Assembly: GCA_964483665.1 (NCBI GenBank)
Contig: CAZACP010000004.1
Span: 7,399-71,398, forward strand
Source: an uncultured Candidatus Saccharibacteria bacterium
GTDB taxonomy: Bacteria > Patescibacteriota > Doudnabacteria > UBA920
Reading direction: 5' to 3'
Length of the DNA: 64,000 bases
In this document: piece by piece, positions 2,260-63,138 of the stretch
Position numbering within the stretch: position 1 is the first letter of the stretch
How the letters are laid out: each line of letters opens with the position of its first letter
Notes under the pieces: model-generated
The model's database searches: none
Told to the model about the DNA's origin: nothing
The model's input: only the letters and a program-made list of their open reading frames with translations
Made by a program: the position numbers and the translations under genes

Positions 2260-2787
2260 TTATGCTTTTTGCGTAACCGCGTTAAGCACATTTATTAAGC
2301 TTCTTATGTTGCCGGCAAGTACGTTTACAAAACCGGAAACCGGAGCGTTAATTGTGCCAACAAGCATGCCTCGGAGCTGGTCTTTGCTTGGCAAGTCGGC
2401 CAATGCCTCAACCTGAGTTTTAGCAATAACCGCTTTGTCGACCACACCTTCCAAAACTTTTATGGTCTTAATTTCTTTAGCCAGACTTTTTATAACCCTA
2501 GCCGGCGAAGTCTCGTCTTCGTTAGACATAGACAAAATTACCGGGGTTTTATAGTCCGCAATATTACCGCTAACTCCTGCTTCTGACAAAGCTTTTTTTA
2601 CTAGGCTTAATTTGTAAACCTTGGAAAAAACATTTTCCTTGCGCAAAGCGCTGCGGAATTTGGTAATATCTTTAACTGTTGTGCCTTTATAGTCGGTAAA
2701 GACTATAGACTTTGCGGTTTTAACCTTTTCTGTTAATTCCTGCAAATCAGTCTGTTTTTGAGATTTTGATTTAGACATAGTTTGCAA
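2260..2787 (-). CDS. rplJ: 50S ribosomal protein L10
   Basis: 175-aa ORF immediately upstream of rplL with an L10-like sequence (SIVFTDYKGTTVKDITKFRSALRKENV). Confidence 0.9.
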   Translation of the reverse strand: MQTMSKSKSQKQTDLQELTEKVKTAKSIVFTDYKGTTVKDITKFRSALRKENVFSKVYKLSLVKKALSEAGVSGNIADYKTPVILSMSNEDETSPARVIKSLAKEIKTIKVLEGVVDKAVIAKTQVEALADLPSKDQLRGMLVGTINAPVSGFVNVLAGNIRSLINVLNAVTQKA

Positions 2788-2877
2788 TAACTAATAATTG
2801 TTAATTGATAATTAATAACTTTAGGTACAGTTATGAGATATCAATTATTAGTTATAAATTCTTTCTTCTTTTCGACC

Positions 2878-2940
2878 TTTACCCTGTTAAATAACTCGCT
2901 AAAGGCGAGTTGCCGCTAAGCGGCATTTAACAGGGTTAAT
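2878..2940. repeat. Structured multi-hairpin element (copy 1), about 90 nt upstream of the rplJ start; possible L10 leader or repeat
   Basis: The sequence is ccctgttaaataactcgctaaaggcgagttgccgctaagcggcatttaacaggg: an outer 11-bp stem with two nested hairpins. The copy at 17005-17078 is about 80% identical and has compensatory stem changes. Confidence 0.5.
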
Positions 2941-3221
2941 CGTTAAATATCGTAGACAAATTCCGCCTTCGCCAAGGCTATGGCGGATTGTTCTCTATAA
3001 AAATAAATTTATGGGAACAAAAAACTCGGGCTTAGCCGAGTGAAATACTTATAAGCTTACCAGCTTACGCGCTGATTTGCTTTTATATATTCCTCGGTGG
3101 GCTCCTGTTTAGGAATTAACCCCACTTCTCCTAAGAGGCGGGGACCAACTGTCAATGGATATTAAACTTAATATATAATATAATAAACTAGCTAGAATGT
3201 CAAGGAATGAAAGGGGGGTCT

Positions 3222-3434: not shown

Positions 3435-4013
3435 TTACTTAAACAAAAACTTCGGCACATAGCTTACCATTGCCGCCATTTCCCTTACGTAATAAAAACT
3501 AAGCTCCTTAAATTTAAAATACCCGCTGTCCGGTGCGCTATAGTAAACTTTTTTAAAACCCAAAGACTTGGCCATTATAACGCTTCTGGCCAAATGAAAT
3601 TTGTCTGAGACCACAATTACAGACTCTGCCTGGGGCAATTTTTCCCGCGCATTTTTTATATTTTCGTAAGTATTAGAAGCATTTTCGTCTAAAATTACAT
3701 TTAAAGTCTTATTGGTATTTTTTTGCAGTATTCGCTGCATATTGGTAGCTTCGGAAATATATTTTTCATTTATCCTGCCTCCGGAAAGCACCATTACCGG
3801 GGCCATTTCCTGCTCATAAAGCTTTAGGGCTTCTAAAGTCCTATTTTGCAAAGCCGGCGTGTTTATAGCAGCGCCCATAACTATTATGGCATCGGCTTTT
3901 TGCACTTGCGGCGAACTTAAGGCATAGCCAAAAACCAACCCGGCATCTAAAACAAGCGCCGCAGCAACGGCATATAGCCCTACTTTTATGGAACTAACAA
4001 CTCTTTTCCTCAT
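3435..4013 (-). CDS. DUF218 (YdcF/SanA/ElyC-like) family protein
   Basis: 192 aa with an N-terminal TM helix and the DUF218 pattern VLSGGR...ASNTYENIKNAREKL...VVSDKFHLARS. Confidence 0.7.
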   Translation of the reverse strand: MRKRVVSSIKVGLYAVAAALVLDAGLVFGYALSSPQVQKADAIIVMGAAINTPALQNRTLEALKLYEQEMAPVMVLSGGRINEKYISEATNMQRILQKNTNKTLNVILDENASNTYENIKNAREKLPQAESVIVVSDKFHLARSVIMAKSLGFKKVYYSAPDSGYFKFKELSFYYVREMAAMVSYVPKFLFK

Positions 4014-5719: not shown

Positions 5720-6187
5720 ATGGAAACAAACCTCCAAAAATCTACTTGGATGAAGAAAAAATATTTAGCTTACGGCATTATTCCGGCTTTTGCTTTAGCC
5801 TTAGCCGGGGCGGGCGTAGCCTCCGCCCATGGATTTGGTTTTGGTATGAGTAATTTAACTCCGCAGCAAATTGCGCAAAACCAAACTGACCGCTTCACTA
5901 AACAGGCCGCGCTTTTAGGAGTCAGCGTGGACGAAGTAAAAACGGCTTGGGCCAAAGGCCAGACCTTGCAGGAACTGGCAAATTCCAAAGGCATAACCGC
6001 CGAGCAACTAAAAGCTAAAATGCAGGCGCAAATGCAGGAACAACAAAAAGCGCATTTGCAGGCTTTGGTTGACCAAGGCGTAATAACCCAAGACCAAATG
6101 AACCAACGCCTTGAATTTGAAAAAAACAACCAGGGCAAAGGCTTTGGCAAGCGCGGTATGCGCGGAATGGGTATGATGGGCTTTTAG
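5720..6187 (+). CDS. Secreted Gln/Ala-rich protein (signal peptide)
   Basis: RBS aaagga 8 nt upstream. The signal peptide is LAYGIIPAFALALAGAGVASA, the body is a helical Q-rich region and the C-terminus is Gly/Met-rich. It is part of the ECF sigma neighbourhood. Confidence 0.5.
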   Translation: METNLQKSTWMKKKYLAYGIIPAFALALAGAGVASAHGFGFGMSNLTPQQIAQNQTDRFTKQAALLGVSVDEVKTAWAKGQTLQELANSKGITAEQLKAKMQAQMQEQQKAHLQALVDQGVITQDQMNQRLEFEKNNQGKGFGKRGMRGMGMMGF

Positions 6188-6203
6188 ATTTAAACAATAT
6201 TAA

Positions 6204-6241
6204 CTCTCTCTCCAAGACTTGGAGAGAGCCGGAGAGAGATT
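6204..6241. repeat. Family A palindromic element (CTCTCTCCAAGACTTGGAGAGAG core)
   Basis: It shares its core with the copies at 24627, 45092, 45512 and 63043 and with the intragenic copies. Confidence 0.7.
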
Positions 6242-13569: not shown

Positions 13570-13627
13570 TTGCCTTAAAATTTTCGCCTGGCCCTTTTGC
13601 ACTACTGTACTAGTACAGTAGTGCAAA
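13570..13627. repeat. Family E element with perfect 38-bp palindrome CCTTTTGCACTACTGTACTAGTACAGTAGTGCAAAAGG
   Basis: Read directly from the sequence. It shares the TTTTCGCCTGGCCC leader with 12631. Confidence 0.65.
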
Positions 13628-13631
13628 AGGT

Positions 13632-14789: not shown

Positions 14790-16523
14790 TTATCTTGTTT
14801 CTCTTGTCGGAGGGATTTGGAAATAATTAACCAAATACTGCGCCAGCTGGCCAAAAGCCGGTGCCGCGGTGCTTTCCGCAAACTTTACTGTTTTTGGCTT
14901 GTCTATACGAACAAGCATTAAAAATTTTGGGTCTTCCACGGGACCAAAGCCAATAAAGGTGCCTATGTTTACATTTTCTTCATATCCAAGGCCGTTAATT
15001 TTAGGAACCTGGGCTGTGCCGGTCTTCCCCGCAATATAGTAGCCAGGAACACCAGCTCTTTTTCCGTGTCCGTTTTCCACGACATTTACCATCATGGCGG
15101 TTACGGTATTGGCGGTTTGAGCAGAAATTATTTGCCTTACTTCCTTAACTTTGGTGTCAGTTCTTTGGCCTTCCGGAGAAATTCTACTGGCAACAATATA
15201 TGGCTTAAGCATCTTGCCTGAATTTGGAAATGCGGTAAAGGCTTGTATGAGCTGTATGGGCGTTACTGTTAAACCCTGGCCAAAACTGGCTGTTGCGAAG
15301 TTTACATTAATATTTGCCTTTAGGTTGTCTAAATTACCTTTTCTCTCCATTAACTCAATCCCGGTTTTTTCACCAAAACCAAATTTTTTTACGTATTCTA
15401 AAAATTTTTGATTCCCGATTTGGTCTTTAACAAAAATCAAGCCCGTATTTAAAGATTCTTCCAGTACTTGTGTCATTGTCTGCAGGCCCCTTGGTTTTGG
15501 GTCAGAATTTTTTATAGTTTTGTCATCTATTTTTACAAACCCCTCGTCCACAAAAGTCGTATCCGGAGTTATTTTGCCTTCGTTTAAAGCCGCGGCCATG
15601 GTTAAAGGTTTAAATACGCTTCCTGGTTCATAAGAACCTATGGTGGCTTCGTTGTTAAAAGCGGCCGGGTCAGTTACTTCGCTGTATTTATTTGGGTCAA
15701 AATCTGGGAAACCGGCCATAGCCAAAATTTTTCCGGTTTTTGGGTCAGCGATTATTACCGTCCCGCTAGTCGCCTCATTTTTTTCCACCGTTTCTTTTAA
15801 AACTTTTTGAGCCTCGTACTGGATATTTTTGTCTATGGTTAAAATTAGAGAGTCACCGTCTTTTGCGGCATCCAGCTGCCTATTGCCGCCAAAAATCCAG
15901 GCTCCGCTTATATCGCCCTCCTGTTTTAAAACTCCTTCTTTTCCGGCTAATTCACTTTCAAAAAAACTTTCAAGCCCGTAAACCCCTTGCTTTGTATCGC
16001 CCTTATAGCCAACAAATCCCAGCACCTGGGAAAGTAAGGATCCTTGCGGATAGTACCTAAAACCTTCGTGGTCAAAATATATACCGCTTAACTTTATTTC
16101 CTTAATTTTATTTACTTCTTCATCGCTGAGCTGTTTTTTTAAAACCACATATTTTTTTTGCTTGTTTGCCAGCTTGTTTAAAAGCTCGTTATGTTCTAAA
16201 GACAAGACCGAAGAAAGACTGGCTGCTGCTAAAACCGGATTTTGAATCTCGCCCGGTACGGCATAAACCAGCGGTTTTTGAATATTGGTAGCCACAGGCA
16301 AAAGCTGGTCGGTCGAGTTTTCAATTAAATTTATTTCCCCCCTTGTGGGCAAAAGTTTTAAAACCATATTCCTTTGCGCTTCCGCCCTGGCTTTACTCTC
16401 CTTGCCGCGAACTATTTGCAAATATCCAAGCCGTAAAACAATTATAAAAAAACATACTATAAAAAAAGCAGCCAATAAACTGCTTCTTAGGTCTAATGGA
16501 TTTTTAACCTTTCTCTGCACCAT
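14790..16523 (-). CDS. ftsI: Penicillin-binding protein (FtsI/PBP2-type transpeptidase)
   Basis: N-terminal TM helix. The motifs are SVFKP (SxxK) and KTGTAQ (KTG). It is positioned after ftsL in the dcw cluster. Confidence 0.85.
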   Translation of the reverse strand: MVQRKVKNPLDLRSSLLAAFFIVCFFIIVLRLGYLQIVRGKESKARAEAQRNMVLKLLPTRGEINLIENSTDQLLPVATNIQKPLVYAVPGEIQNPVLAAASLSSVLSLEHNELLNKLANKQKKYVVLKKQLSDEEVNKIKEIKLSGIYFDHEGFRYYPQGSLLSQVLGFVGYKGDTKQGVYGLESFFESELAGKEGVLKQEGDISGAWIFGGNRQLDAAKDGDSLILTIDKNIQYEAQKVLKETVEKNEATSGTVIIADPKTGKILAMAGFPDFDPNKYSEVTDPAAFNNEATIGSYEPGSVFKPLTMAAALNEGKITPDTTFVDEGFVKIDDKTIKNSDPKPRGLQTMTQVLEESLNTGLIFVKDQIGNQKFLEYVKKFGFGEKTGIELMERKGNLDNLKANINVNFATASFGQGLTVTPIQLIQAFTAFPNSGKMLKPYIVASRISPEGQRTDTKVKEVRQIISAQTANTVTAMMVNVVENGHGKRAGVPGYYIAGKTGTAQVPKINGLGYEENVNIGTFIGFGPVEDPKFLMLVRIDKPKTVKFAESTAAPAFGQLAQYLVNYFQIPPTRETR

Positions 16524-16632: not shown

Positions 16633-16998
16633 TTACTTTAATGCCGTAGCCGGCGCTTGTAAAGTTACAAAAGTCGGCGCCCCTGCCTGGACAAAACCGC
16701 TTTTGGAAAAATCGTCCGTTAAAACTGAAATAGCTGTTGCTTCAGACATTTTTAAATTTAAAGCTTTTTGGGTTTCATTCAATTTTTGGGCTTGTTTCTG
16801 CAACTCCTTTATTTCATAGCCGGTAGAGGCTCTGGCGTTTACTCCGAGCAAATAGCTTAAAAGCAAGGCCGCGTTAACCGCAATTATGGCATAAAGCAGC
16901 CATGGCCTTTGTTGCTCTACTCCAAAATTTCGCCTGGCAGCGGAAATTTGCGGGCGAGCGCTGAAAAATAAATTTTGTAATATGTCGGTTTTTATCAT
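16633..16998 (-). CDS. ftsL: Cell division protein FtsL-like
   Basis: Single TM helix plus coiled coil, sitting between rsmH and ftsI. The start is trimmed to MIKTD at 16998. Confidence 0.5.
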   Translation of the reverse strand: MIKTDILQNLFFSARPQISAARRNFGVEQQRPWLLYAIIAVNAALLLSYLLGVNARASTGYEIKELQKQAQKLNETQKALNLKMSEATAISVLTDDFSKSGFVQAGAPTFVTLQAPATALK

Positions 16999-17004
16999 AT
17001 GTTT

Positions 17005-17078
17005 TTTTGCTTGCCCCGTTAAATAATTCGCTTGTCGAATTGCCGTCAGAGGCGGCATTTAACAGGGTGAATTTTTTG
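17005..17078. repeat. Structured multi-hairpin element (copy 2)
   Basis: ccccgttaaataattcgcttgtcgaattgccgtcagaggcggcatttaacaggg. The stems are conserved relative to 2878-2940 with compensatory substitutions. Confidence 0.5.
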
Positions 17079-17175
17079 TTTTAATTTTTGCTTGTCCGTC
17101 TAAATGTCCCGCCCAGGCGGGACTTTTGACGAGCTTTTGTTTTTTAGTTAATTGTTAATCGTCAATTGTTAATTG

Positions 17176-18153
17176 TTACAGCTTCACTATTGCCCTTAAT
17201 TTAGCGGGCTTTGAGCGAGGATTATTTTTTAATTCGTTTTCAGAAGCAGTTACTATTTTTTTGGTTAATATTTTTCCTTGAGGATTTTTGCCACACACAC
17301 ATTGAGGGAAATCTATTGGGCATACGCAGCCTTTACTTAAGCTATTAAAGTATTGTTTTACTATTCTGTCTTCAAGCGAATGGAAGCTTACTATTACTAG
17401 CCTGCCGCCCGGGTTTAAAAGGTCAAAACTTTTTGGCAAAAACTCTTCTAAGGCTTCCAGCTCATGGTTAACCGCTATTCTTAAGGCTTGAAATATTCTT
17501 CTGGCTGAATCATCGGCGCGATGTTTTACAGGCTTAGGAAGTGAATCATGGATTATTTGATAGAGTTCTGTTGTATAGCGGATTTGGCTCTTAGATCTTG
17601 ATTCTTGGATCTTCCTTGCTATCTGGCGGCTAAACTTTTCCTCACCGTAATCGCTAAATATTTTACTAAGCTCCTGTTCGCTTCTGTTATTTAGTAAAAA
17701 ACTTGCGTCTTCGGGTTTAGTTTGATCAAACCGCATGTCTAGCGGCTCTTTTTTCTGAAAGCTAAATCCCCGCCCAGACTGGTCAAGTTCATATGACGAA
17801 AGTCCCAAATCTGCAACAATGCCTGAAATATTATTAAACTCATGTTCTTTTGTTATTTTGTTTATGTTTTGAAAATTGCCGTGCACCGCTATCACTCCCT
17901 CTCCCTCTGGGAGAGGGCCGGGGTGAGGGTGTTTGATATTTGTCCGCCAGTTTGCGGATTGAAATTTGAAATTCTCAATCGCATCCTTGTCCAAATCTAT
18001 AACCAACAACTTGCCGCCCGGAGATATTTTTTGCAAGATCGTCTTACTATACCCTCCTCCGCCTAGCGTCGCGTCGACAAAATTCTCACCGGGCTTAGGG
18101 TTAAGAAAGTAAATAACTTCCTCAAGTAATACTGGAATATGTTCATAATTCAT
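17176..18153 (-). CDS. rsmH: 16S rRNA (cytosine1402-N4)-methyltransferase RsmH/MraW
   Basis: MNYEHIPVLLEEV...DATLGGGGYS and a C-terminal FHSLEDRIVK. It contains an in-frame repeat-derived insert. Confidence 0.85.
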   Translation of the reverse strand: MNYEHIPVLLEEVIYFLNPKPGENFVDATLGGGGYSKTILQKISPGGKLLVIDLDKDAIENFKFQSANWRTNIKHPHPGPLPEGEGVIAVHGNFQNINKITKEHEFNNISGIVADLGLSSYELDQSGRGFSFQKKEPLDMRFDQTKPEDASFLLNNRSEQELSKIFSDYGEEKFSRQIARKIQESRSKSQIRYTTELYQIIHDSLPKPVKHRADDSARRIFQALRIAVNHELEALEEFLPKSFDLLNPGGRLVIVSFHSLEDRIVKQYFNSLSKGCVCPIDFPQCVCGKNPQGKILTKKIVTASENELKNNPRSKPAKLRAIVKL

Positions 18154-18585
18154 TTAAACTCCTAGGCTCCCTAATTGTTCTGCTATTTGATTACTCGCGG
18201 CTTCGGTTTGCTGTTTGTACGCTTTCCACAGTTCTTCGCTCCAAATTTCTATGCGGTTATACAGTCCGGCAATTACTGCTTTTTTCCCAATTTTTGCAAA
18301 TTCCTTTAAATAGGTCGGTAAAATTATTCTGCCTTGCTTGTCTATTTCACAGTCCATAGCCCCGGCTAACATTAAACGGCTAAAGGCTCTGGTATTTGCC
18401 GTGGCAATTGGCAAGCTGGAAAGTTTTTCCGCCAATTTCTTCCATTCTTCCATTGAGTAAAGAAACAACGAATTGTCTAAACCCCTGGTAACAACGACTT
18501 TTCTTTTAAGTTCTGCTCTAAATTTGGCCGGAACTGAAATTCTGCCCTTTTCATCTATACTTGCTTGATATTCACCTATGAACAT
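18154..18585 (-). CDS. mraZ: Transcriptional regulator MraZ
   Basis: 143 aa, two-domain MraZ with DEKGRISVP and DKQGRIILP motifs. Confidence 0.85.
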   Translation of the reverse strand: MFIGEYQASIDEKGRISVPAKFRAELKRKVVVTRGLDNSLFLYSMEEWKKLAEKLSSLPIATANTRAFSRLMLAGAMDCEIDKQGRIILPTYLKEFAKIGKKAVIAGLYNRIEIWSEELWKAYKQQTEAASNQIAEQLGSLGV

Positions 18586-24595: not shown

Positions 24596-24626
24596 ATTTT
24601 TGTTTCCTTAGCTCTTTCCTTATTTT

Positions 24627-24670
24627 TTCCCTCTCCAAGACTTGGAGAGGGTTAGGGAAAGGTTGATGAT
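24627..24670. repeat. Family A element (CCCTCTCCAAGACTTGGAGAGGG TTAGGGAAAGGTTG)
   Basis: Matches the cores at 63043 and 6204. Confidence 0.7.
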
Positions 24671-25534: not shown

Positions 25535-26968
25535 TTACCTTTTAAAACTCTTCCCCGGCCTTATGGAAATATCACCATCGTTATCAACTTCCTTAACTCT
25601 CCCAAAACCTACGCTGTCCCTAAATACTTTCCCTGCCTTTAAAACCGGGGCGTAAGACAAAGTAAATTTGCCGTATTTGGCGTTTACAACATCTATCGCG
25701 CGAGTAAGCGAAGCTTTGGCCGTTTGTTTTTTAAACAAAGACTGCTGAAGAATAAAAGGCTTAAGGCCTGCTACGGTAACGCCTATTAATTTACAATTGG
25801 CGATGATTTTATGTATATCGGTATAATTCTTTATAATATGCCTGGCTTCCCAAAATAAATCCCTTGCGTCAAAAATATCGGTAGACAATTTTGCAGAATG
25901 CCCGTAACTGTTATAATCGCCGTCGCGCACATACGCCACCACAATATTGCCCATTAATTTTTTGCGCCTAAGCCTCTCCCCCACCATTTCGCAAAGCTTG
26001 TATAAAACCGGCTCAAAAAATTCCGGCTTTCTGTATTCCTTAGGCAGAGTATACATATGGCCGATTGATTTTATACTTTCATCAAAATTCACTTTTGCTT
26101 TCCAGCTACCGCTTAACTGTCCCATATGGTGAAGGTGATAGCCGTTAATGCCAAACACTCGCACCAGTTTGCTTAAGGGGTAATCGCGCAGCTCTTTTAA
26201 AGTTTTTATGCCAAGTTCGTTTAACCTTTTTTCCTGCCTTTTGGCTATACCCGGTATGTCGGTAAGTTTAAGACGAGTATAAAGATCTTCTTTGGTTAGA
26301 TTTAAAACCCCATTTGATATTTGAAATTTGATATTTGAAATTAGCACTATTCCATCCGGCTTTTTTAAATCACTCGCAATTTTTGCTAGGAGTTTGTTCT
26401 CCGCAATACCTATGCTGCAAGTTAAATAATCCCCCACTTCTTTTTTCATTCGTTTTTTTATTTCCACAGCTACCCTAACCGCTTCTTGCCAAGGATTGGC
26501 CAATAAATAATCTTTAATTTCTGCCATATAAAAATATGGGTGTTCTATATTTTGAAATTTGGATTTTAAAATTTGTCCGCCAGCTGGCGGATTATTTAAA
26601 AATTTAAAATTTAAAATTGGAAATTTAACATTACAGCTTGCTGTAATGTCCACATACGCTTCATCTATGCTGGCCGGCTCAACAAAATTGCTGTAGTCCC
26701 TTAAAACTTTTAAAAACCGGCGATGATACTCCCTGTAAGCATCGGCCCTTGTATGCACCAAAATAATTTTAGGATACAGCTTTTTAGCTTCCCAGACCGG
26801 CGTGCCGGTCTTTATGCCCCAGCGCTTGGCTTCTATGCTGGCGGCAATAATAATGCCGCCCAAATGTTCGCACACGCCTAAAACCTTGCCGCGGTACTCT
26901 TTATTGTCTTGCTGCTCCACCGAGGCAAAATAGCTGTTCATATCTAAATGCAAAATTACATTTTGCAT
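25535..26968 (-). CDS. dinB: DNA polymerase IV (Y-family)
   Basis: MQNVILHLDMNSYFASVE...SIDEAYVDIT...CSIGIAENKLLAKIAS. It carries two in-frame repeat-derived inserts. Confidence 0.85.
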   Translation of the reverse strand: MQNVILHLDMNSYFASVEQQDNKEYRGKVLGVCEHLGGIIIAASIEAKRWGIKTGTPVWEAKKLYPKIILVHTRADAYREYHRRFLKVLRDYSNFVEPASIDEAYVDITASCNVKFPILNFKFLNNPPAGGQILKSKFQNIEHPYFYMAEIKDYLLANPWQEAVRVAVEIKKRMKKEVGDYLTCSIGIAENKLLAKIASDLKKPDGIVLISNIKFQISNGVLNLTKEDLYTRLKLTDIPGIAKRQEKRLNELGIKTLKELRDYPLSKLVRVFGINGYHLHHMGQLSGSWKAKVNFDESIKSIGHMYTLPKEYRKPEFFEPVLYKLCEMVGERLRRKKLMGNIVVAYVRDGDYNSYGHSAKLSTDIFDARDLFWEARHIIKNYTDIHKIIANCKLIGVTVAGLKPFILQQSLFKKQTAKASLTRAIDVVNAKYGKFTLSYAPVLKAGKVFRDSVGFGRVKEVDNDGDISIRPGKSFKR

Positions 26969-27788: not shown

Positions 27789-27880
27789 ACAAAATTTTAG
27801 TGTTCGACTTCATGGAGAACCTAAAATTTTATCTTAAATACTCAATATTGTTCTCCACGAGGTCGAACAATATTCCGGTT
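27789..27880. repeat. Family H element (AAAATTTTAGTGTTCGACTTCATGGAGAACC + inverted partial copy)
   Basis: Same family as 42511-42552 and 42893-42964. No gene is enclosed. Confidence 0.6.
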
Positions 27881-32018: not shown

Positions 32019-33746
32019 TTAAGATGATAACTGCCTAATATCTATAATTCTTAACTTTAATTGCTTATTCCCGTTCCATTCATCTTGCAATAATTCACAG
32101 GCTAAATCTAACTCTTGGCCTATTTGTAAACTGCTGTCTTTAGGCCCAAAATTAAAAGCGATGCAGGAAATTTGTCTGTTGCCTAAAGAAATTTTCATTT
32201 GCAAATGCTGTGCTTTTTGTCCCACAGCCCGCTTACTTAATATTTTAGCATTTTTCAGCAAAAATTTTGGTTTCGGGTTGCCAACCCCAAAAGGCTCTAA
32301 GGAAGCAATCAAGTTGTAAGTTGTAAGTTGTAAGTCTTCGGAGGAAAGTTCTGCGTCAATATTTAAAACAGGCCCGTCATCTTCTTCCATATTCTTTTCC
32401 GCAAAATCCAAAACGCTTTGGTAAAATATTTCAAAATTTTCCGTTTGCAAGGTAAGCCCCGCCGCCTGCTTATGCCCGCCATAGCGGATTAAATGCTGGC
32501 CGGAATATTTTAAAGCCTCAACTACATTAAATTCCCCCGCGCTTCTGGCCGACCCGGTCGCTTCAAACTCCCCCTTCTCCAGCACAATTGTGGGTTTATA
32601 AAATTCTTCGGCTAATTTGCCCGCAACTAACCCCACAACGCCTTTATGCCAACTTTCCCCCATTAACACCAAAACCTTCCTGTGAAGTATTCCTTGGGCT
32701 TTTTCTCTCGCTTCGCTCATTATCCGCGCTGTTATTTCCTGCCTTCGCAAATTTATTTCTTCAATATTTTGAGCTTGAATTTTTGCCTTTAAGGGATCGT
32801 TTTCTAACAAAAGTTCCAGGGCAACATTAGCGTGTTCAAGCCTTCCAGCCGCGTTTATCCTTGGTGCAATTACAAAACCTAAGGAATAAGTATCCAGCGG
32901 CTGCTTTGCAGGATCCAGCTTTGCTAAATCCATTAAAGCCCTAAGCCCAACCCACTTTGTTTTAGCTAAAACTTTAAGGCCATACTTAACAAAAATTCTA
33001 TTCTCGCCTATAAGCTTATGACAGTCAGCCACTGTGCCTATAGCCACAAGGTCTAATAGCCACTTTTCCCACCCTTGGGATGATTTCGGATTTCGTCCGC
33101 CAGCTGGCGGATCGGATTTCGGATTTTGCAGCAATGCCTGAGCGAGTTTAAAAGCCACGCCGACCCCAACAATTTGGTCATCCGGATAATTATCGTCTTG
33201 ATTTTTAGGGTTTATAAGCGCTAAAGCGTTTGGTAAATTTCCAATAATTTCATGGTGGTCGGTAATAATTAAGTCTATGTTATTTTCCTTGCACCATTCT
33301 GCGGCATCTACAGAATTTGTGCCGCAGTCCACGGTAATTATTACTTTTGAACCATGTTCTTTAATTTTTTTTAAGGCGTCTAAATTTACCCCGTACCCTT
33401 CCAAAAAACGGTCGGGTATATAACTTTCACAGTCCGCGCCCAAATAATTAAAGGCTTGGCGCAAAACCGCATTAGCGGTTATGGCGTCTGCGTCATAGTC
33501 GCCGTAAATAGTAATTTTTTCTTTATTCTCTATTGCCTGCCATATCCTGTTAACGGCTTTTTCCATATCGCGGAATAAAAACGGGCTATTAAGCCCTGTA
33601 GTATAGTCCGCGTTAATAAATTTTTTTATTTCTTCCGGTTCCTTAAGGCCGCGATCAAAAAGCAATTGCCTTAAAAGGACCGGGTAATCTTTATAAACTT
33701 CTTCCAGTTCTGTCGGAATATTGGGTTTTAATTTCCAAATTTTCAT
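32019..33746 (-). CDS. recJ: Single-stranded-DNA-specific exonuclease RecJ
   Basis: DHH motifs (YGDYDADAITANAVL and IITDHHE) and a DHHA1 domain. It has two in-frame repeat inserts. Confidence 0.85.
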   Translation of the reverse strand: MKIWKLKPNIPTELEEVYKDYPVLLRQLLFDRGLKEPEEIKKFINADYTTGLNSPFLFRDMEKAVNRIWQAIENKEKITIYGDYDADAITANAVLRQAFNYLGADCESYIPDRFLEGYGVNLDALKKIKEHGSKVIITVDCGTNSVDAAEWCKENNIDLIITDHHEIIGNLPNALALINPKNQDDNYPDDQIVGVGVAFKLAQALLQNPKSDPPAGGRNPKSSQGWEKWLLDLVAIGTVADCHKLIGENRIFVKYGLKVLAKTKWVGLRALMDLAKLDPAKQPLDTYSLGFVIAPRINAAGRLEHANVALELLLENDPLKAKIQAQNIEEINLRRQEITARIMSEAREKAQGILHRKVLVLMGESWHKGVVGLVAGKLAEEFYKPTIVLEKGEFEATGSARSAGEFNVVEALKYSGQHLIRYGGHKQAAGLTLQTENFEIFYQSVLDFAEKNMEEDDGPVLNIDAELSSEDLQLTTYNLIASLEPFGVGNPKPKFLLKNAKILSKRAVGQKAQHLQMKISLGNRQISCIAFNFGPKDSSLQIGQELDLACELLQDEWNGNKQLKLRIIDIRQLSS

Positions 33747-33749
33747 TGA

Positions 33750-33830
33750 GTAGTTGGTAGTTGGTAGTTGGTAGTTGGTAGCCCAAATTGCTCCGGCTAC
33801 TTACTACTTTACTACCTACTACTTACTAAA
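33750..33830. repeat. Family D element: (TAGTTGG)4 array - spacer - (CTACTTA)n array
   Basis: Read directly from the sequence. The second copy is at 62515-62590. Confidence 0.65.
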
Positions 33831-42510: not shown

Positions 42511-42552
42511 GCAAATAATAGTGTTCGACCTTGTGGAGAACCTATTATTTGC
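42511..42552. repeat. Family H element (solo unit GCAAATAATAGTGTTCGACCTTGTGGAGAACCTATTATTTGC)
   Basis: 10-bp flanking stem around the conserved core. Confidence 0.6.
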
Positions 42553-42879: not shown

Positions 42880-42892
42880 TGCTTAAAAATTT

Positions 42893-42964
42893 TAGTGTTC
42901 GAGCTTGTCGAGAACCCAAAATTTTACGTACTTAATAGTATCACAAGGTCGAATAATATTAAGT
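42893..42964. repeat. Family H element (direct copy plus inverted partial copy)
   Basis: ttttagtgttcgagcttgtcgagaacccaaaatttt ... tcacaaggtcgaataatatt. Confidence 0.6.
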
Positions 42965-61220: not shown

Positions 61221-62510
61221 TTAAAAGCCCTCATAGTCATGCATTGTCAACTGTGCTTCGATTTTCTTGATTATTTCTATAACCACGGACACCACAATCA
61301 ATAACGAAGTACCGCCCAAAGTTAAGGCCTTGGTTCCGGTTAAATTTTGGGCAACTAGAGGCAGAATAGCAATAATTGCTAAAAATACTGCACCGGCTAA
61401 AGTAATGCGGTTAAGCACAGAAGACAAATAGTCAGCAGTTTGAGCTCCGGGCCTAAGTCCCGGAATGAAGCCGCCATTTTTTTGCACATTTTCGGCAATT
61501 TCCTGAGGGTTAAAGACTACGGCAGTATAAAAATAAGTAAAGCCTAGTATCATAAGGAAGTAAACAATGCCGTAAAACCAGGTGCCGGTGTCATTAAACA
61601 AGGCAATGGTTTTTTGCGCATAGTTAGCAATAAGTGCGCTTTTTGCATTTACAAAGAACTGGGCTATCATTGCGGGAAACAGCATTATGGAAATAGCAAA
61701 AATTATAGGAATAACTCCGGCTTGGTTAAGGCGCAAAGGCAAATGGGTATTAACGCCGCCAAAAAGCCTGTTGCCCCTAACGCGCTTAGCGTAAGCAACC
61801 GGGATATTGCGCTGAGCCTCTGTTACCAAAACCACTCCGGCAATAACGGCTAAGAATACCAAGACAAAGCCGACAATAGTAGGAACTGCGTCCGGATTAC
61901 CCTGATAAATTTGGTAAGCTTGGGAAATGGCGCTCGGGACTCTGGATACAATACCGGCAAAAATAACCAAAGAAATTCCATTGCCAATGTCGAATTCAGA
62001 CATAATTTCACCAATCCACATTATTAACATAGTGCCGGCAGTTACAGAAAGCAAAACCAAAAACCATTGAAAAGGAGAAAAAGTTCCTAAAATTGATCCG
62101 GCTCCCTGGCTGGAAAGAAGCCTAATGGTGCCAAAAGCCTGAAGCGGGGCAAGCGGAATGGTTAAATAGCGGGTGTACTGGTTAAGCTGAGCCCTGCCGG
62201 CTTCCCCACCTTCCTTTTGCATTTCAGCAAAAGAAGGAACTATTATGGTTAAAAGCTGCATTATAATGCTGGCAGTAATGTACGGGCCAACGCCAAGCAT
62301 GGCAATAGAAAAATTAGTCAAACCTCCGCCGGAAAAAACATCAAGCAAATTTAAAAACTGACTCTGCTGAAAAAAAGCTTTAAGCCCGGTTGGGTCTATA
62401 CCCGGAATGGGTATGTGAGTTAAAACCCGCGTAACTAACAAAAGACCAAGCACAATTAAAATTTTGTTGCGTAGGTCTTTGGTTTTCCAAATAAGTAGGA
62501 TTTTGTTCAT
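61221..62510 (-). CDS. secY: Preprotein translocase subunit SecY
   Basis: 429 aa with 10 TM helices. It follows rplO. Confidence 0.9.
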   Translation of the reverse strand: MNKILLIWKTKDLRNKILIVLGLLLVTRVLTHIPIPGIDPTGLKAFFQQSQFLNLLDVFSGGGLTNFSIAMLGVGPYITASIIMQLLTIIVPSFAEMQKEGGEAGRAQLNQYTRYLTIPLAPLQAFGTIRLLSSQGAGSILGTFSPFQWFLVLLSVTAGTMLIMWIGEIMSEFDIGNGISLVIFAGIVSRVPSAISQAYQIYQGNPDAVPTIVGFVLVFLAVIAGVVLVTEAQRNIPVAYAKRVRGNRLFGGVNTHLPLRLNQAGVIPIIFAISIMLFPAMIAQFFVNAKSALIANYAQKTIALFNDTGTWFYGIVYFLMILGFTYFYTAVVFNPQEIAENVQKNGGFIPGLRPGAQTADYLSSVLNRITLAGAVFLAIIAILPLVAQNLTGTKALTLGGTSLLIVVSVVIEIIKKIEAQLTMHDYEGF

Positions 62511-62514
62511 TATG

Positions 62515-62590
62515 TAGTTGGTAGTTGGTAGTTGATAGTTGGTAGCCGAACATTGCCTGACTACTTACTACTTACTACTTCACTAATCGC
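62515..62590. repeat. Family D element (TAGTTGG array - spacer - CTACTTA array)
   Basis: It overlaps the last 8 codons of rplO. Confidence 0.65.
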
Positions 62591-63019: not shown

Positions 63020-63042
63020 AAATAGATATATTCCTTATAGTT

Positions 63043-63138
63043 TCCCTCTCCAAGACTTGGAGAGGGTTAGGGAGAGGTTGAAAATTATTAACCTCTCTGT
63101 CACCTTTCGGGTGACATCTCCCCAAGCTTTCGGGAGAA
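63043..63138. repeat. Family A composite element in the rpsE-rplO spacer (where rpmD/L30 would normally be)
   Basis: ccctctccaagacttggagaggg ttag ggagaggttg..aacctctct gtcacctttcgggtgac atctcccc.. Confidence 0.7.

What the first reader, a model, noticed from the sequence alone, without database searches (positions are those of the whole stretch)
2878..2940. Twice-occurring nested-hairpin element with compensatory base changes (upstream of rplJ and of ftsL)
The 2878-2940 and 17005-17078 copies share an 11-bp outer stem (CCCYGTTAAAT / ATTTAACAGGG) and two inner hairpins. The first inner stem changes from CTCGC/GCGAG to TTCG/CGAA, and the second keeps its stem GCCGC/GCGGC while changing loop. 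Covariation that preserves pairing suggests selection on structure, either as RNA (leader or attenuator on the minus-strand transcripts) or as a DNA cruciform. The first copy sits where an rplJ autoregulatory leader would be expected.
Basis: seen in the sequence. Interest (0 to 1): 0.6.

Follow-up and report, generated by a model that had tools for sequence, protein, structure and literature searches.

The report
Dispersed three-way-hairpin repeat of ultra-small bacteria
The two look-alike hairpins are copies of a roughly 60-base palindromic repeat scattered between genes in many ultra-small bacteria (Patescibacteria and Omnitrophota); it is an insertion that comes and goes, not the rplJ control element, which lies just next to it.

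Summary
Copies at 2881-2936 and 17013-17068 are about 78% identical. Both fold into an outer 12-bp stem closing two hairpins.

The real L10 (rplJ) leader is at 3010-3176 on the minus strand. The element is inserted between that leader and rplJ.

These are many Patescibacteria classes plus genuine Omnitrophota. Across 110 distinct copies the inner stems covary strongly, while the arm TTYACCCYGTTAAAT is nearly constant.

Copies are intergenic, in either orientation relative to genes. They sit next to unrelated housekeeping genes, never as single arms, sometimes in tandem, and with no recurrent partner gene. At orthologous sites presence is sporadic: 2 of 12 rplJ loci, and 5 of about 80 rsmH loci (4 distinct sequences).

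No Rfam family, phage, plasmid or paper in the library matches it.

Best reading: a REP/REPIN- or MITE-like non-autonomous palindromic element, probably acting as folded DNA, with an unknown trans-acting partner. Its branched form, cross-phylum arm conservation and lack of GTAG/CGTC tags make it a new variant of a known kind.

The parts
2881..2936 (.). Copy 1 of the repeat. Outer arms are 2881-2892 and 2925-2936, hairpin 1 is 2893-2911 and hairpin 2 is 2912-2924. Conserved flanks TTT (2878-2880) and TAA (2937-2939) extend it.
   Evidence: Sequence. Fold. Covariance model 77.8 bits, E 1.7e-19. Relative to empty orthologous sites it is an insertion between GATATTTAAC (2951-2942) and TAAAGGTCGA (2881-2872).
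17013..17068 (.). Copy 2 of the repeat. Outer arms are 17013-17024 and 17057-17068, hairpin 1 is 17025-17041 and hairpin 2 is 17042-17056. It lies between the rsmH stop (17176) and the ftsL-like start (ATG at 16998), 14 nt upstream of that ATG.
   Evidence: Sequence. Fold. Covariance model 53.6 bits, E 1.1e-12. Present in the same-species contigs L001-L006. Present at the same intergenic site in L139/L140, L145 and L175, and absent in L135 and others.
3010..3176 (-). Context, not part of the repeat: the real ribosomal protein L10 leader. Its promoter-like site is 3203-3175 and its terminator-like hairpin is 3041-3024.
   Evidence: RF00557 scores 29.8 bits, E 0.008, full length. The homologous region in orthologous loci scores 54.6 and 48.7 bits (gathering score 44) and 33-42 bits in five others.

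Best explanation
Both copies belong to a large family of about 57-65-nt palindromic dispersed repeats found in Patescibacteria (CPR) and Omnitrophota. The window itself comes from a Candidatus Doudnabacteria relative.

The unit is a pair of inverted 12-15-nt arms (TTYACCCYGTTAAAT ... ATTTAACRGGGTRAA). They close one or, usually, two short hairpins, so that a single strand folds into a perfectly paired three-way junction.

Shown here:
- Copies are gained and lost in intergenic DNA.
- They occur in either orientation, sometimes in tandem.
- Some genomes carry near-identical sets of copies.
- No linked gene recurs next to them.

Inferred:
- The element behaves like REP/REPIN or MITE elements. It is a non-autonomous unit, propagated or maintained through its folded DNA form (single-stranded hairpin or cruciform).
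- A protein encoded elsewhere in the genome would recognise the sequence of the outer stem.
- Once inside an operon it is simply co-transcribed. It may secondarily act as an RNA hairpin. Copy 2 ends 14 nt before the ftsL-like start codon, and copy 1 sits between the L10 leader and rplJ.

The enzyme and the insertion chemistry are not identified.
For: Family size and spread:
- The Omnitrophota contig is genuine: all named homologues of its pilus ATPase are from Omnitrophota.

Structure:
- 93% of cells are paired.
- 263 cells carry a change on both sides, against 86 in shuffles (0 of 500 shuffles reach the observed value).
- Sliding the 3' partners drops pairing to 33-46%.
- Variants keep the arms but swap the inside for one hairpin or for unrelated hairpins.
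- Arms never occur singly: 124 are paired, and all 22 apparent solos are explained by a mismatch in the partner arm, a contig end or, once (L028), a partner arm about 133 nt away.

Not gene-specific:
- Orientation is 57 sense to 43 antisense.
- Neighbours are diverse housekeeping genes.
- The largest neighbouring protein cluster covers only 6 loci.

Gain and loss:
- 0 of 10 related rplJ loci carry it. The window and L009 carry it at the same point but with the inner part inverted.
- Among about 80 rsmH loci only L139/L140, L145 and L175 carry it.

Amplification within genomes:
- Identity of the inner part is 0.77 within genomes and 0.64 between them.
- Several genomes hold near-identical sets that also share flanks.
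- Some loci hold 5 copies in 8 kb.

DNA rather than mRNA:
- There is no G-U excess overall (39 versus 36).
- There is none on the transcribed strand either (25 versus 23).
- Hairpin-2 loops are strongly purine-rich on one strand, independent of gene direction: GAA 24, AAA 20, AGA 8 versus TTT 5, TTC 2.
Against: - No transposase, recombinase or other partner gene was found near any copy.
- No clean target-site duplication could be defined. The flanks are TTYA...TRAA, mostly with one T and one C type arm.
- At the rsmH-ftsL site the element is kept in lineages with only 45-66% RsmH identity. It has the same orientation and the same 13-14-nt distance to the start codon, and L139 has a compensatory change in the outer stem (GTCAAAT/ATTTGAC). 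This looks like long vertical retention, and perhaps host-level function.
- In several lineages the conserved core lies in the middle of a longer lineage-specific repeat. This is the reverse of a classical MITE, where the ends are the conserved part.
- Convergent intergenic regions are under-used (6 of 88 versus 61 of 333, p about 0.03, crude gene calls), unlike REPs.
- The outer-arm conservation is partly imposed by the search pattern.
Confidence: 0.6

Rival explanations
1. It is a functional RNA hairpin inside host transcripts. As an intercistronic element it would stabilise or process mRNA, or gate translation of the next gene, working in either orientation because the fold is nearly symmetric.
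For: - Both window copies lie inside operons on the transcribed path.
- Copy 2 ends 14 nt before the ftsL-like ATG with no Shine-Dalgarno sequence between.
- The same 13-14-nt spacing and orientation recur in L139, L145 and L175.
- L139 has a compensatory change in the outer stem.
- Convergent intergenic regions are depleted.
- The RNA folds are strong.
Against: - There is no orientation bias relative to genes.
- G-U is not enriched over A-C on the transcribed strand (25 versus 23).
- A plain hairpin function does not explain a nearly invariant 12-15-nt arm sequence across two phyla.
- The element is absent from most orthologous sites, including the closest relatives.
- The hairpin-2 loop bias is tied to the element's own polarity, not to transcription.
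Confidence: 0.2
2. It is a DNA site for a conserved host protein, for example a tyrosine recombinase of the Xer or integron-integrase kind, or a nucleoid protein. The protein would recognise the outer stem as a duplex in an extruded cruciform or a folded single strand. Its role would be in chromosome maintenance rather than mobility.
For: - The arm contains TGTTAAAT, the outer 8 nt of the XerD arm of E. coli dif (dif sequence as printed in PMC3025954).
- GTTAAAT/ATTTAAC fits the integron R-box consensus GTTRRRY/RYYYAAC (from my own knowledge).
- Tandem copies abut as ATTTAACAGGGT-TG-ACCCTGTTAAAT, a 26-bp palindrome shaped like a recombinase core site.
- The arms are conserved across phyla, as dif arms are.
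- Arms occur only in pairs.
Against: - In single elements the two arms are inside-out relative to dif or attC.
- No conserved second arm lies 6 nt from either end.
- Identity to dif is 8 nt only, a resemblance recalled from memory.
- Sporadic presence at orthologous sites is odd for a maintenance signal.
- No integrase is linked.
Confidence: 0.13
3. It is the rplJ autoregulatory leader or attenuator, reused upstream of ftsL.
For: Copy 1 lies in the 5' untranslated region of rplJ.
Against: - The L10 leader is a different, adjacent sequence at 3010-3176.
- Ten relatives keep that leader without the element.
- The element occurs next to dozens of unrelated genes, in both orientations.
Confidence: 0.02

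Closest known systems
REP elements and REPINs (repetitive extragenic palindromes, REP doublets forming hairpins; mobilised by RAYT tyrosine transposases). PMC3733652, PMC3116915, PMC2817692.
   Same: - Small palindromic extragenic repeats.
- Many copies, in both orientations.
- Tandem or clustered arrangements.
- Fold as single-stranded DNA or mRNA.
- Non-autonomous.
- Within-genome families.
- Often lie inside operons.
   Different: - No GTAG or CGTC tag.
- 57-65 nt and branched (a three-way junction) rather than a 20-40-nt simple hairpin.
- The same arm sequence is shared across many classes and two phyla, whereas many of the described REP families are species-specific.
- Convergent intergenic regions are under-used rather than preferred.
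- No RAYT gene was seen, though whole genomes could not be searched.
Bacterial MITEs (for example Correia, ERIC/IRU, RUP). PMC3184786 and my own knowledge.
   Same: - Terminal inverted repeats.
- Small size and intergenic location.
- Filled and empty orthologous sites.
- Bursts of near-identical copies in some genomes.
- TA-like flanks.
   Different: - Very short.
- The inner stems are kept by compensatory change.
- In several lineages the conserved part is the centre of a longer lineage-specific repeat rather than its ends.
- No consistent target-site duplication.
- No parent insertion sequence with the same ends was found in about 1 Mb of fetched loci.
Integron attC sites and other folded single-strand recombination sites (my own knowledge).
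   Same: - Function would depend on a folded single strand.
- The conserved stem carries GTTRRRY/RYYYAAC.
- The inner part is variable.
- One strand is distinguished (hairpin-2 loop bias).
   Different: - The order of the two boxes is reversed: GTTAAAT is 5' and ATTTAAC is 3'.
- There are no extrahelical bases and no unpaired central spacer.
- Not in cassette arrays.
- No integrase nearby.
Rfam RF00557, ribosomal protein L10 leader.
   Same: Copy 1 lies in the same 5' untranslated region.
   Different: It is a separate sequence. The leader is at 3010-3176. The element is an insertion 3' of the leader and is absent in relatives.

Membership tests
Rfam L10_leader (RF00557) | The sequence and structure match the covariance model upstream of rplJ. 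| tested here: not met
   The model matches 3010-3176 on the minus strand, not the element. Orthologous leaders score up to 54.6 bits without any element present.
Any Rfam 15 family | A match at or near a gathering score. | tested here: not met
   At the element there are only noise hits of 13-26 bits, far below gathering scores. This holds for the window copies and for the best-scoring member, L064.
REP (GTAG/CGTC-tagged, PMC3733652) | An unpaired GTAG or CGTC tag at one end. | tested here: not met
   The consensus TTYACCCYGTTAAAT...ATTTAACRGGGTRAA holds neither tag.
REP (PMC3733652) | A simple palindrome of 20-40 bp. | tested here: not met
   The element is 57-65 nt with two inner hairpins. 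Only rare variants have one hairpin.
REP (PMC3733652) | Many extragenic copies per genome. | tested here: inconclusive
   There are 2 copies in this 64 kb and up to 5 per 8 kb in Omnitrophota contigs. Whole genomes could not be counted.
REP (PMC3733652) | Mostly located between unidirectional and convergent genes. | tested here: not met
   Co-directional 69, divergent 13, convergent 6. Convergent regions are under-used against background (p about 0.03, crude gene calls).
REP/REPIN | A cognate RAYT gene in the genome, flanked by the repeats. | not testable with these tools
   Only 8-kb loci were available. No recurrent protein was found in them.
MITE | Terminal inverted repeats. | tested here: met
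   The arms are 12-15 nt and always paired.
MITE | A target-site duplication. | tested here: inconclusive
   The flanks TTYA/TRAA allow a TA reading. However, 67 of 87 copies with a pyrimidine/purine at the variable flank position have unlike flanks. The rplJ site fits TAA...TAA only for the window copy.
MITE | Filled and empty orthologous sites. | tested here: met
   rplJ: 2 filled of 12 loci. rsmH-ftsL: filled in the window, L139/L140, L145 and L175, and empty in L135 and others.
MITE | A parent insertion sequence with the same ends. | tested here: not met
   No arm pair encloses a gene in the fetched loci. The widest pair is 133 nt apart, in L028. Whole genomes were not searched.
Integron attC | Box order 5'-RYYYAAC ... 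GTTRRRY-3', location in cassette arrays, and an integrase nearby. | tested here: not met
   The order is reversed, and the copies are solitary next to housekeeping genes.
dif / Xer core site | Two 11-bp arms around a 6-bp centre, one site per replicon. | tested here: not met
   Only 8 nt match the XerD arm. There is no second arm beside either end, and there are many copies per genome.
Intrinsic terminator | A G+C-rich hairpin followed by a T run. | tested here: not met
   The scan does not call either copy. The consensus 3' flank is TRAA, and a T run is present in only a subset.

The most novel reading that the evidence does not exclude
The element is the recognition site, in folded single-stranded or cruciform DNA, of a conserved and still unidentified sequence-specific enzyme. 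This could be a recombinase or an HUH-type nuclease shared by Patescibacteria and Omnitrophota. That would define a new class of hairpin-borne mobile DNA, or a genome-maintenance signal, specific to ultra-small symbiotic bacteria. Its three-way junction and its GAA-type mini-hairpin would be required features.
Probability: 0.25. Interest if true: 0.75.

Novelty: new variant of a known kind. Interest (0 to 1): 0.55.

Why it matters
Patescibacteria and Omnitrophota have tiny, streamlined genomes and almost no experimental genetics. A 60-nt element with an almost invariant arm is therefore unexpected, given that it is shared across many classes and two phyla and reaches one copy per intergenic region in some genomes. 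It points to a conserved trans-acting protein, or to gene flow between these lineages.

Practical consequences:
- Annotation pipelines start a 141-aa ORF inside copy 2.
- A reader could mistake copy 1 for the L10 leader.

The family, with the covariance model built here, could serve as a marker for these lineages. It is also a handle for finding the enzyme that recognises it.

Tried and rejected
- **Rfam:** searched at gathering and at permissive thresholds on both window copies and on the best family member. Nothing relevant turned up.
- **Literature:** searched for the arm sequence and for repeats or RNA motifs in Patescibacteria, CPR and Omnitrophota. No description was found. The one paper holding both arm strings was a primer coincidence.
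- **Phage or plasmid carriage:** 0 hits in IMG/VR, PLSDB and INPHARED.
- **Linked gene:** Pfam counts over 100 start-facing neighbours and all-against-all clustering of 756 ORFs found nothing recurrent.
- **Strand of action from wobble pairs:** no asymmetry. The test has limited power, because mismatches make up only about 3% of cells.
- **Link between the flank asymmetry and gene direction:** none.
- **DNA-uptake-signal idea:** rejected, because arms never occur singly.
- **Terminator idea:** rejected.
- **An upstream degenerate copy in the window:** I first read GATATTTAAC (2951-2942) as the remnant of one. Orthologues show it is ancestral sequence that seems to pair with the 5' end of the L10 leader.
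- **Xer/dif and attC resemblance:** kept only as a lead, because the architecture does not fit.

Full report
**What is there**

The two copies are real.
- Copy 1 is 2881-2936 and copy 2 is 17013-17068.
- They match at 45 of 58 aligned columns, and the similarity ends at the element borders.
- Each strand of each copy folds into a 12-bp outer stem that closes two hairpins, with no unpaired junction bases. RNA z-scores run from -2.6 to -6.2 and DNA z-scores from -4.4 to -8.0.
- A covariance model built from the family finds only these two copies in the window with filters off.

**Genes around them**

All relevant genes are on the minus strand.
- Around copy 1: rplL 1727-2137, rplJ 2260-2778, and a DUF218 gene at 3435-4013.
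- Around copy 2: mraZ 18154-18585, rsmH 17176-18153, an ftsL-like ORF, and a PBP/FtsI gene at 14790-16523.
- The window comes from a Candidatus Doudnabacteria relative, because L10 homologues at 69-84% identity are named so.
- Gene callers start the ftsL-like ORF at 17058, inside copy 2. The relative L135 begins its gene at the ATG that corresponds to 16998 (MIK...LQNLFF). Copy 2 is therefore intergenic and ends 14 nt before that start.

**The real L10 leader**

- On the minus strand a promoter-like site (TTGACA-17-TATTAT, 3203-3175) is followed by a terminator-like hairpin with a T run (3041-3024).
- Rfam L10_leader matches 3010-3176 over its full length at 29.8 bits, E 0.008, below the gathering score of 44.
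- The homologous stretch in orthologous loci scores 54.6 bits (L133) and 48.7 bits (L131), both above gathering, and 33-42 bits in five others.
- The leader is therefore next to the element, not the element itself.

**The family**

- 116 of these are true members, from 63 assemblies. L075 and L089 are chance hits.
- They cover many Patescibacteria lineages, including Doudna-, Nealson-, Nomura-, Harrison-, Giovannoni-, Staskawicz- and Magasanikbacteria, Moraniibacteriota, Sungiibacteriota, Saccharibacteria, Paceibacterota and Minisyncoccales. They also cover four Omnitrophota genomes.
- A few genomes are labelled Gammaproteobacteria, Spirochaetales or Bathyarchaeia. I did not verify those labels.
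- The Omnitrophota label is sound. The pilus ATPase flanked by copies in L037 has only Omnitrophota-named homologues at 60-77% identity.

**Structure across the family**

Across 110 distinct copies:
- 93% of cells form standard pairs.
- 263 cells carry changes on both sides, against 86 in column shuffles (0 of 500 shuffles reach the observed value).
- Sliding the 3' partners by 1-3 columns drops pairing to 33-46%.
- Hairpin 1 is the most varied. Examples of its 5' arm are TTTCGCC, TTTTGC, CCCGC, CCCCTCC and CCAACACTTTT, each with its complement. Hairpin 2 switches between GCCGC, GCCAC, GCCC and GCCCC.

The search pattern left the inside free, so this covariation is not imposed by it. The invariance of the outer stem is partly imposed.

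Model-based searching then found variants:
- Some keep the arms but have a single inner hairpin (L037:7330, L029:3000, L090:3076).
- Some have unrelated inner hairpins (L103:7720, L103:5245).
- Some have compensatory changes in the outer stem (GTTAGAAAT/ATTTCTAAC in L063 and the related GTTAGAAGT/ACTTCTAAC in L048). L139 has GTCAAAT/ATTTGAC.

Arms never occur alone. The constant unit is therefore the pair of arms closing some hairpin content.

**Context**

- Copies are intergenic.
- Relative to flanking genes the element's own polarity is close to random: 57 sense to 43 antisense for start-facing genes, and 52 to 41 for end-facing genes.
- Neighbours are unrelated housekeeping genes, including pilB, ftsZ, atpF, topA, aminoacyl-tRNA synthetases, rpsA, rplN, mraZ, lexA-like, dnaK, secA, secY and tuf.
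- No protein family recurs in more than 6 loci.
- Host intergenic regions are 69 co-directional, 13 divergent and 6 convergent. The background for regions of 60 nt or more is 229, 43 and 61. Convergent regions are under-used, p about 0.03, with crude gene calls.
- Some loci hold 5 copies in 8 kb (L037, L103).
- Adjacent copies abut as ...ATTTAACAGGGT-TG-ACCCTGTTAAAT... (L076, L037, L009, L014).

**Gain and loss**

At rplJ I fetched 10 further orthologous loci with L10 identity of 65-91%.
- All have the leader.
- None has the element.
- Their sequence reads GATATTTAAC-(0-4 nt)-TAAAGGTCGA.
- In the window and in L009 (67% identity) the element sits exactly between those two blocks. In L009 it is a tandem pair, with the inner part in the opposite order.
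- Two other relatives (L133, L126) carry unrelated hairpins at the same point.

At rsmH-ftsL I fetched 80 related loci.
- The element follows rsmH only in L139/L140 (66% identity), L145 (63%, degenerate) and L175 (45%).
- In the well-scoring copies (L139/L140, L175) it has the same orientation as in the window; the degenerate L145 copy scores too weakly to orient. In all of them it lies 13-14 nt before the start codon.
- The closest relative (L135, 74%) and the rest have a short A-rich spacer or other hairpins instead.
- Not all of those loci extend past rsmH.

The element therefore comes and goes, and one site can also keep it for a long time.

**Signs of amplification**

- The variable inner part is more alike within a genome (mean identity 0.77) than between genomes (0.64), after identical copies were already collapsed.
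- Genomes such as JAHJSK01 and JAHIMV01 hold eight or more near-identical copies that also share 30-40 nt of flank on each side.
- In Nomurabacteria the core caps a longer palindrome of about 130 nt.
- The two window copies are old and diverged (0.63).

**Which molecule acts**

- G-T and A-C mismatches are equally common: 39 versus 36 overall, and 25 versus 23 on the transcribed strand of co-directional sites. There is therefore no sign of RNA wobble tolerance. The test has modest power.
- Hairpin-2 loops are strongly purine-rich on the element's own forward strand (GAA 24, AAA 20, AGA 8, against TTT 5 and TTC 2). Hairpin-1 loops are symmetric.
- GCGAAGC is, from my own knowledge, a hyperstable DNA mini-hairpin. 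I treat that as a lead only.
- A strand preference tied to the element and not to transcription fits folded DNA better than host mRNA, as do the paired-only arms and the sequence-conserved outer stem.
- The outermost flank position is asymmetric: TTTA...TGAA 40, TTCA...TAAA 27, TTTA...TAAA 16, TTCA...TGAA 4. It occurs in both orientations relative to the inner part, which suggests that the inner part has flipped between the arms during evolution. I have no explanation for the preference for unlike arms.

**Comparison with known kinds**

- The closest are REP/REPIN elements (PMC3733652, PMC3116915) and bacterial MITEs.
- The element shares their habit but fails the REP tags and size.
- It lacks a demonstrable target duplication or parent element.
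- It differs in its branched fold and its cross-phylum arm.
- The arm contains the outer 8 nt of the XerD arm of dif (sequence in PMC3025954). It also fits the integron R-box consensus. The arrangement matches neither site, so this stays a lead.
- Nothing matches in Rfam, IMG/VR, plasmids or phages, or the paper library.

**Verdict**

The thing is a member of a large, apparently undescribed REP/MITE-like family with a three-way-junction fold. Its mechanism remains inferred, not shown.

Noticed in passing
window 3010-3203, minus strand: This is the real L10 leader, with promoter-like site TTGACA-17-TATTAT (3203-3175) and terminator-like hairpin (3041-3024). Its 5' end (TTTAATATCC, about 3166-3157) seems to pair with GATATTTAAC (2951-2942), which lies 3' of the terminator. 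Both blocks are conserved in 11 orthologous loci, with some matching changes (for example CTTAATATCC/GGATATTGAG in L129). The Rfam model has no such closing helix.
   Followed up: partly
window 16996-17058, minus strand: Public gene calls start the ftsL-like ORF at 17058, inside copy 2. Comparison with L135 puts the real start at the ATG at 16998, giving a 120-aa product instead of the called 141-aa one. The ORF has no Pfam hit and is called ftsL-like by position only.
   Followed up: partly
L133 about 1060-1130; L126 about 1410-1455; L009 1944-2030: The spot between the L10 leader and TAAAGGTCGA carries different, unrelated hairpins in different Doudnabacteria relatives. It looks like a hot spot for hairpin insertions.
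   Followed up: partly
window 6185-6241, 24608-24664, 63023-63079; 27791-27831, 42512-42552, 42886-42926; 26562-26592, 33082-33112; 13593-13630: The window holds several other short palindromic repeat families. Examples are CTCTCCAAGACTTGGAGAG, TAGTGTTCGAC..GAGAAC, GTCCGCCAGCTGGCGGAT, and a perfect 19+19 palindrome. None is related to the element studied.
   Followed up: no
window 2786-2863 and 17144-17176; L005 about 1410-1440: AT-rich TAATTGTTAATTGATAATTAATAAC-like motifs lie next to both copies. One is a 38-nt imperfect inverted repeat just upstream of the rplJ start. Another lies right after the rsmH stop. Their function is unknown.
   Followed up: no
window 17100-17135; L005; L135: The hairpin AAAAGTCCCGCCTGGGCGGGACATTTAGACGG, downstream of rsmH, is shared with L135. 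In strain contig L005 it is replaced by a different hairpin, while copy 2 beside it stays nearly identical.
   Followed up: partly
L028 1160-1310: Here a pair of family arms encloses about 133 nt instead of about 35 nt. This is the only large variant seen.
   Followed up: no
window 1-64000: GC skew is negative in every 4-kb bin across the window. In the first 20 kb, the part whose ORFs I listed, most long ORFs lie on the minus strand. Both copies have their forward strand on the plus strand.
   Followed up: no
window 33742-33809 and 62506-62573: Two copies of a TAGTTGG tandem-repeat block share 84% identity.
   Followed up: no
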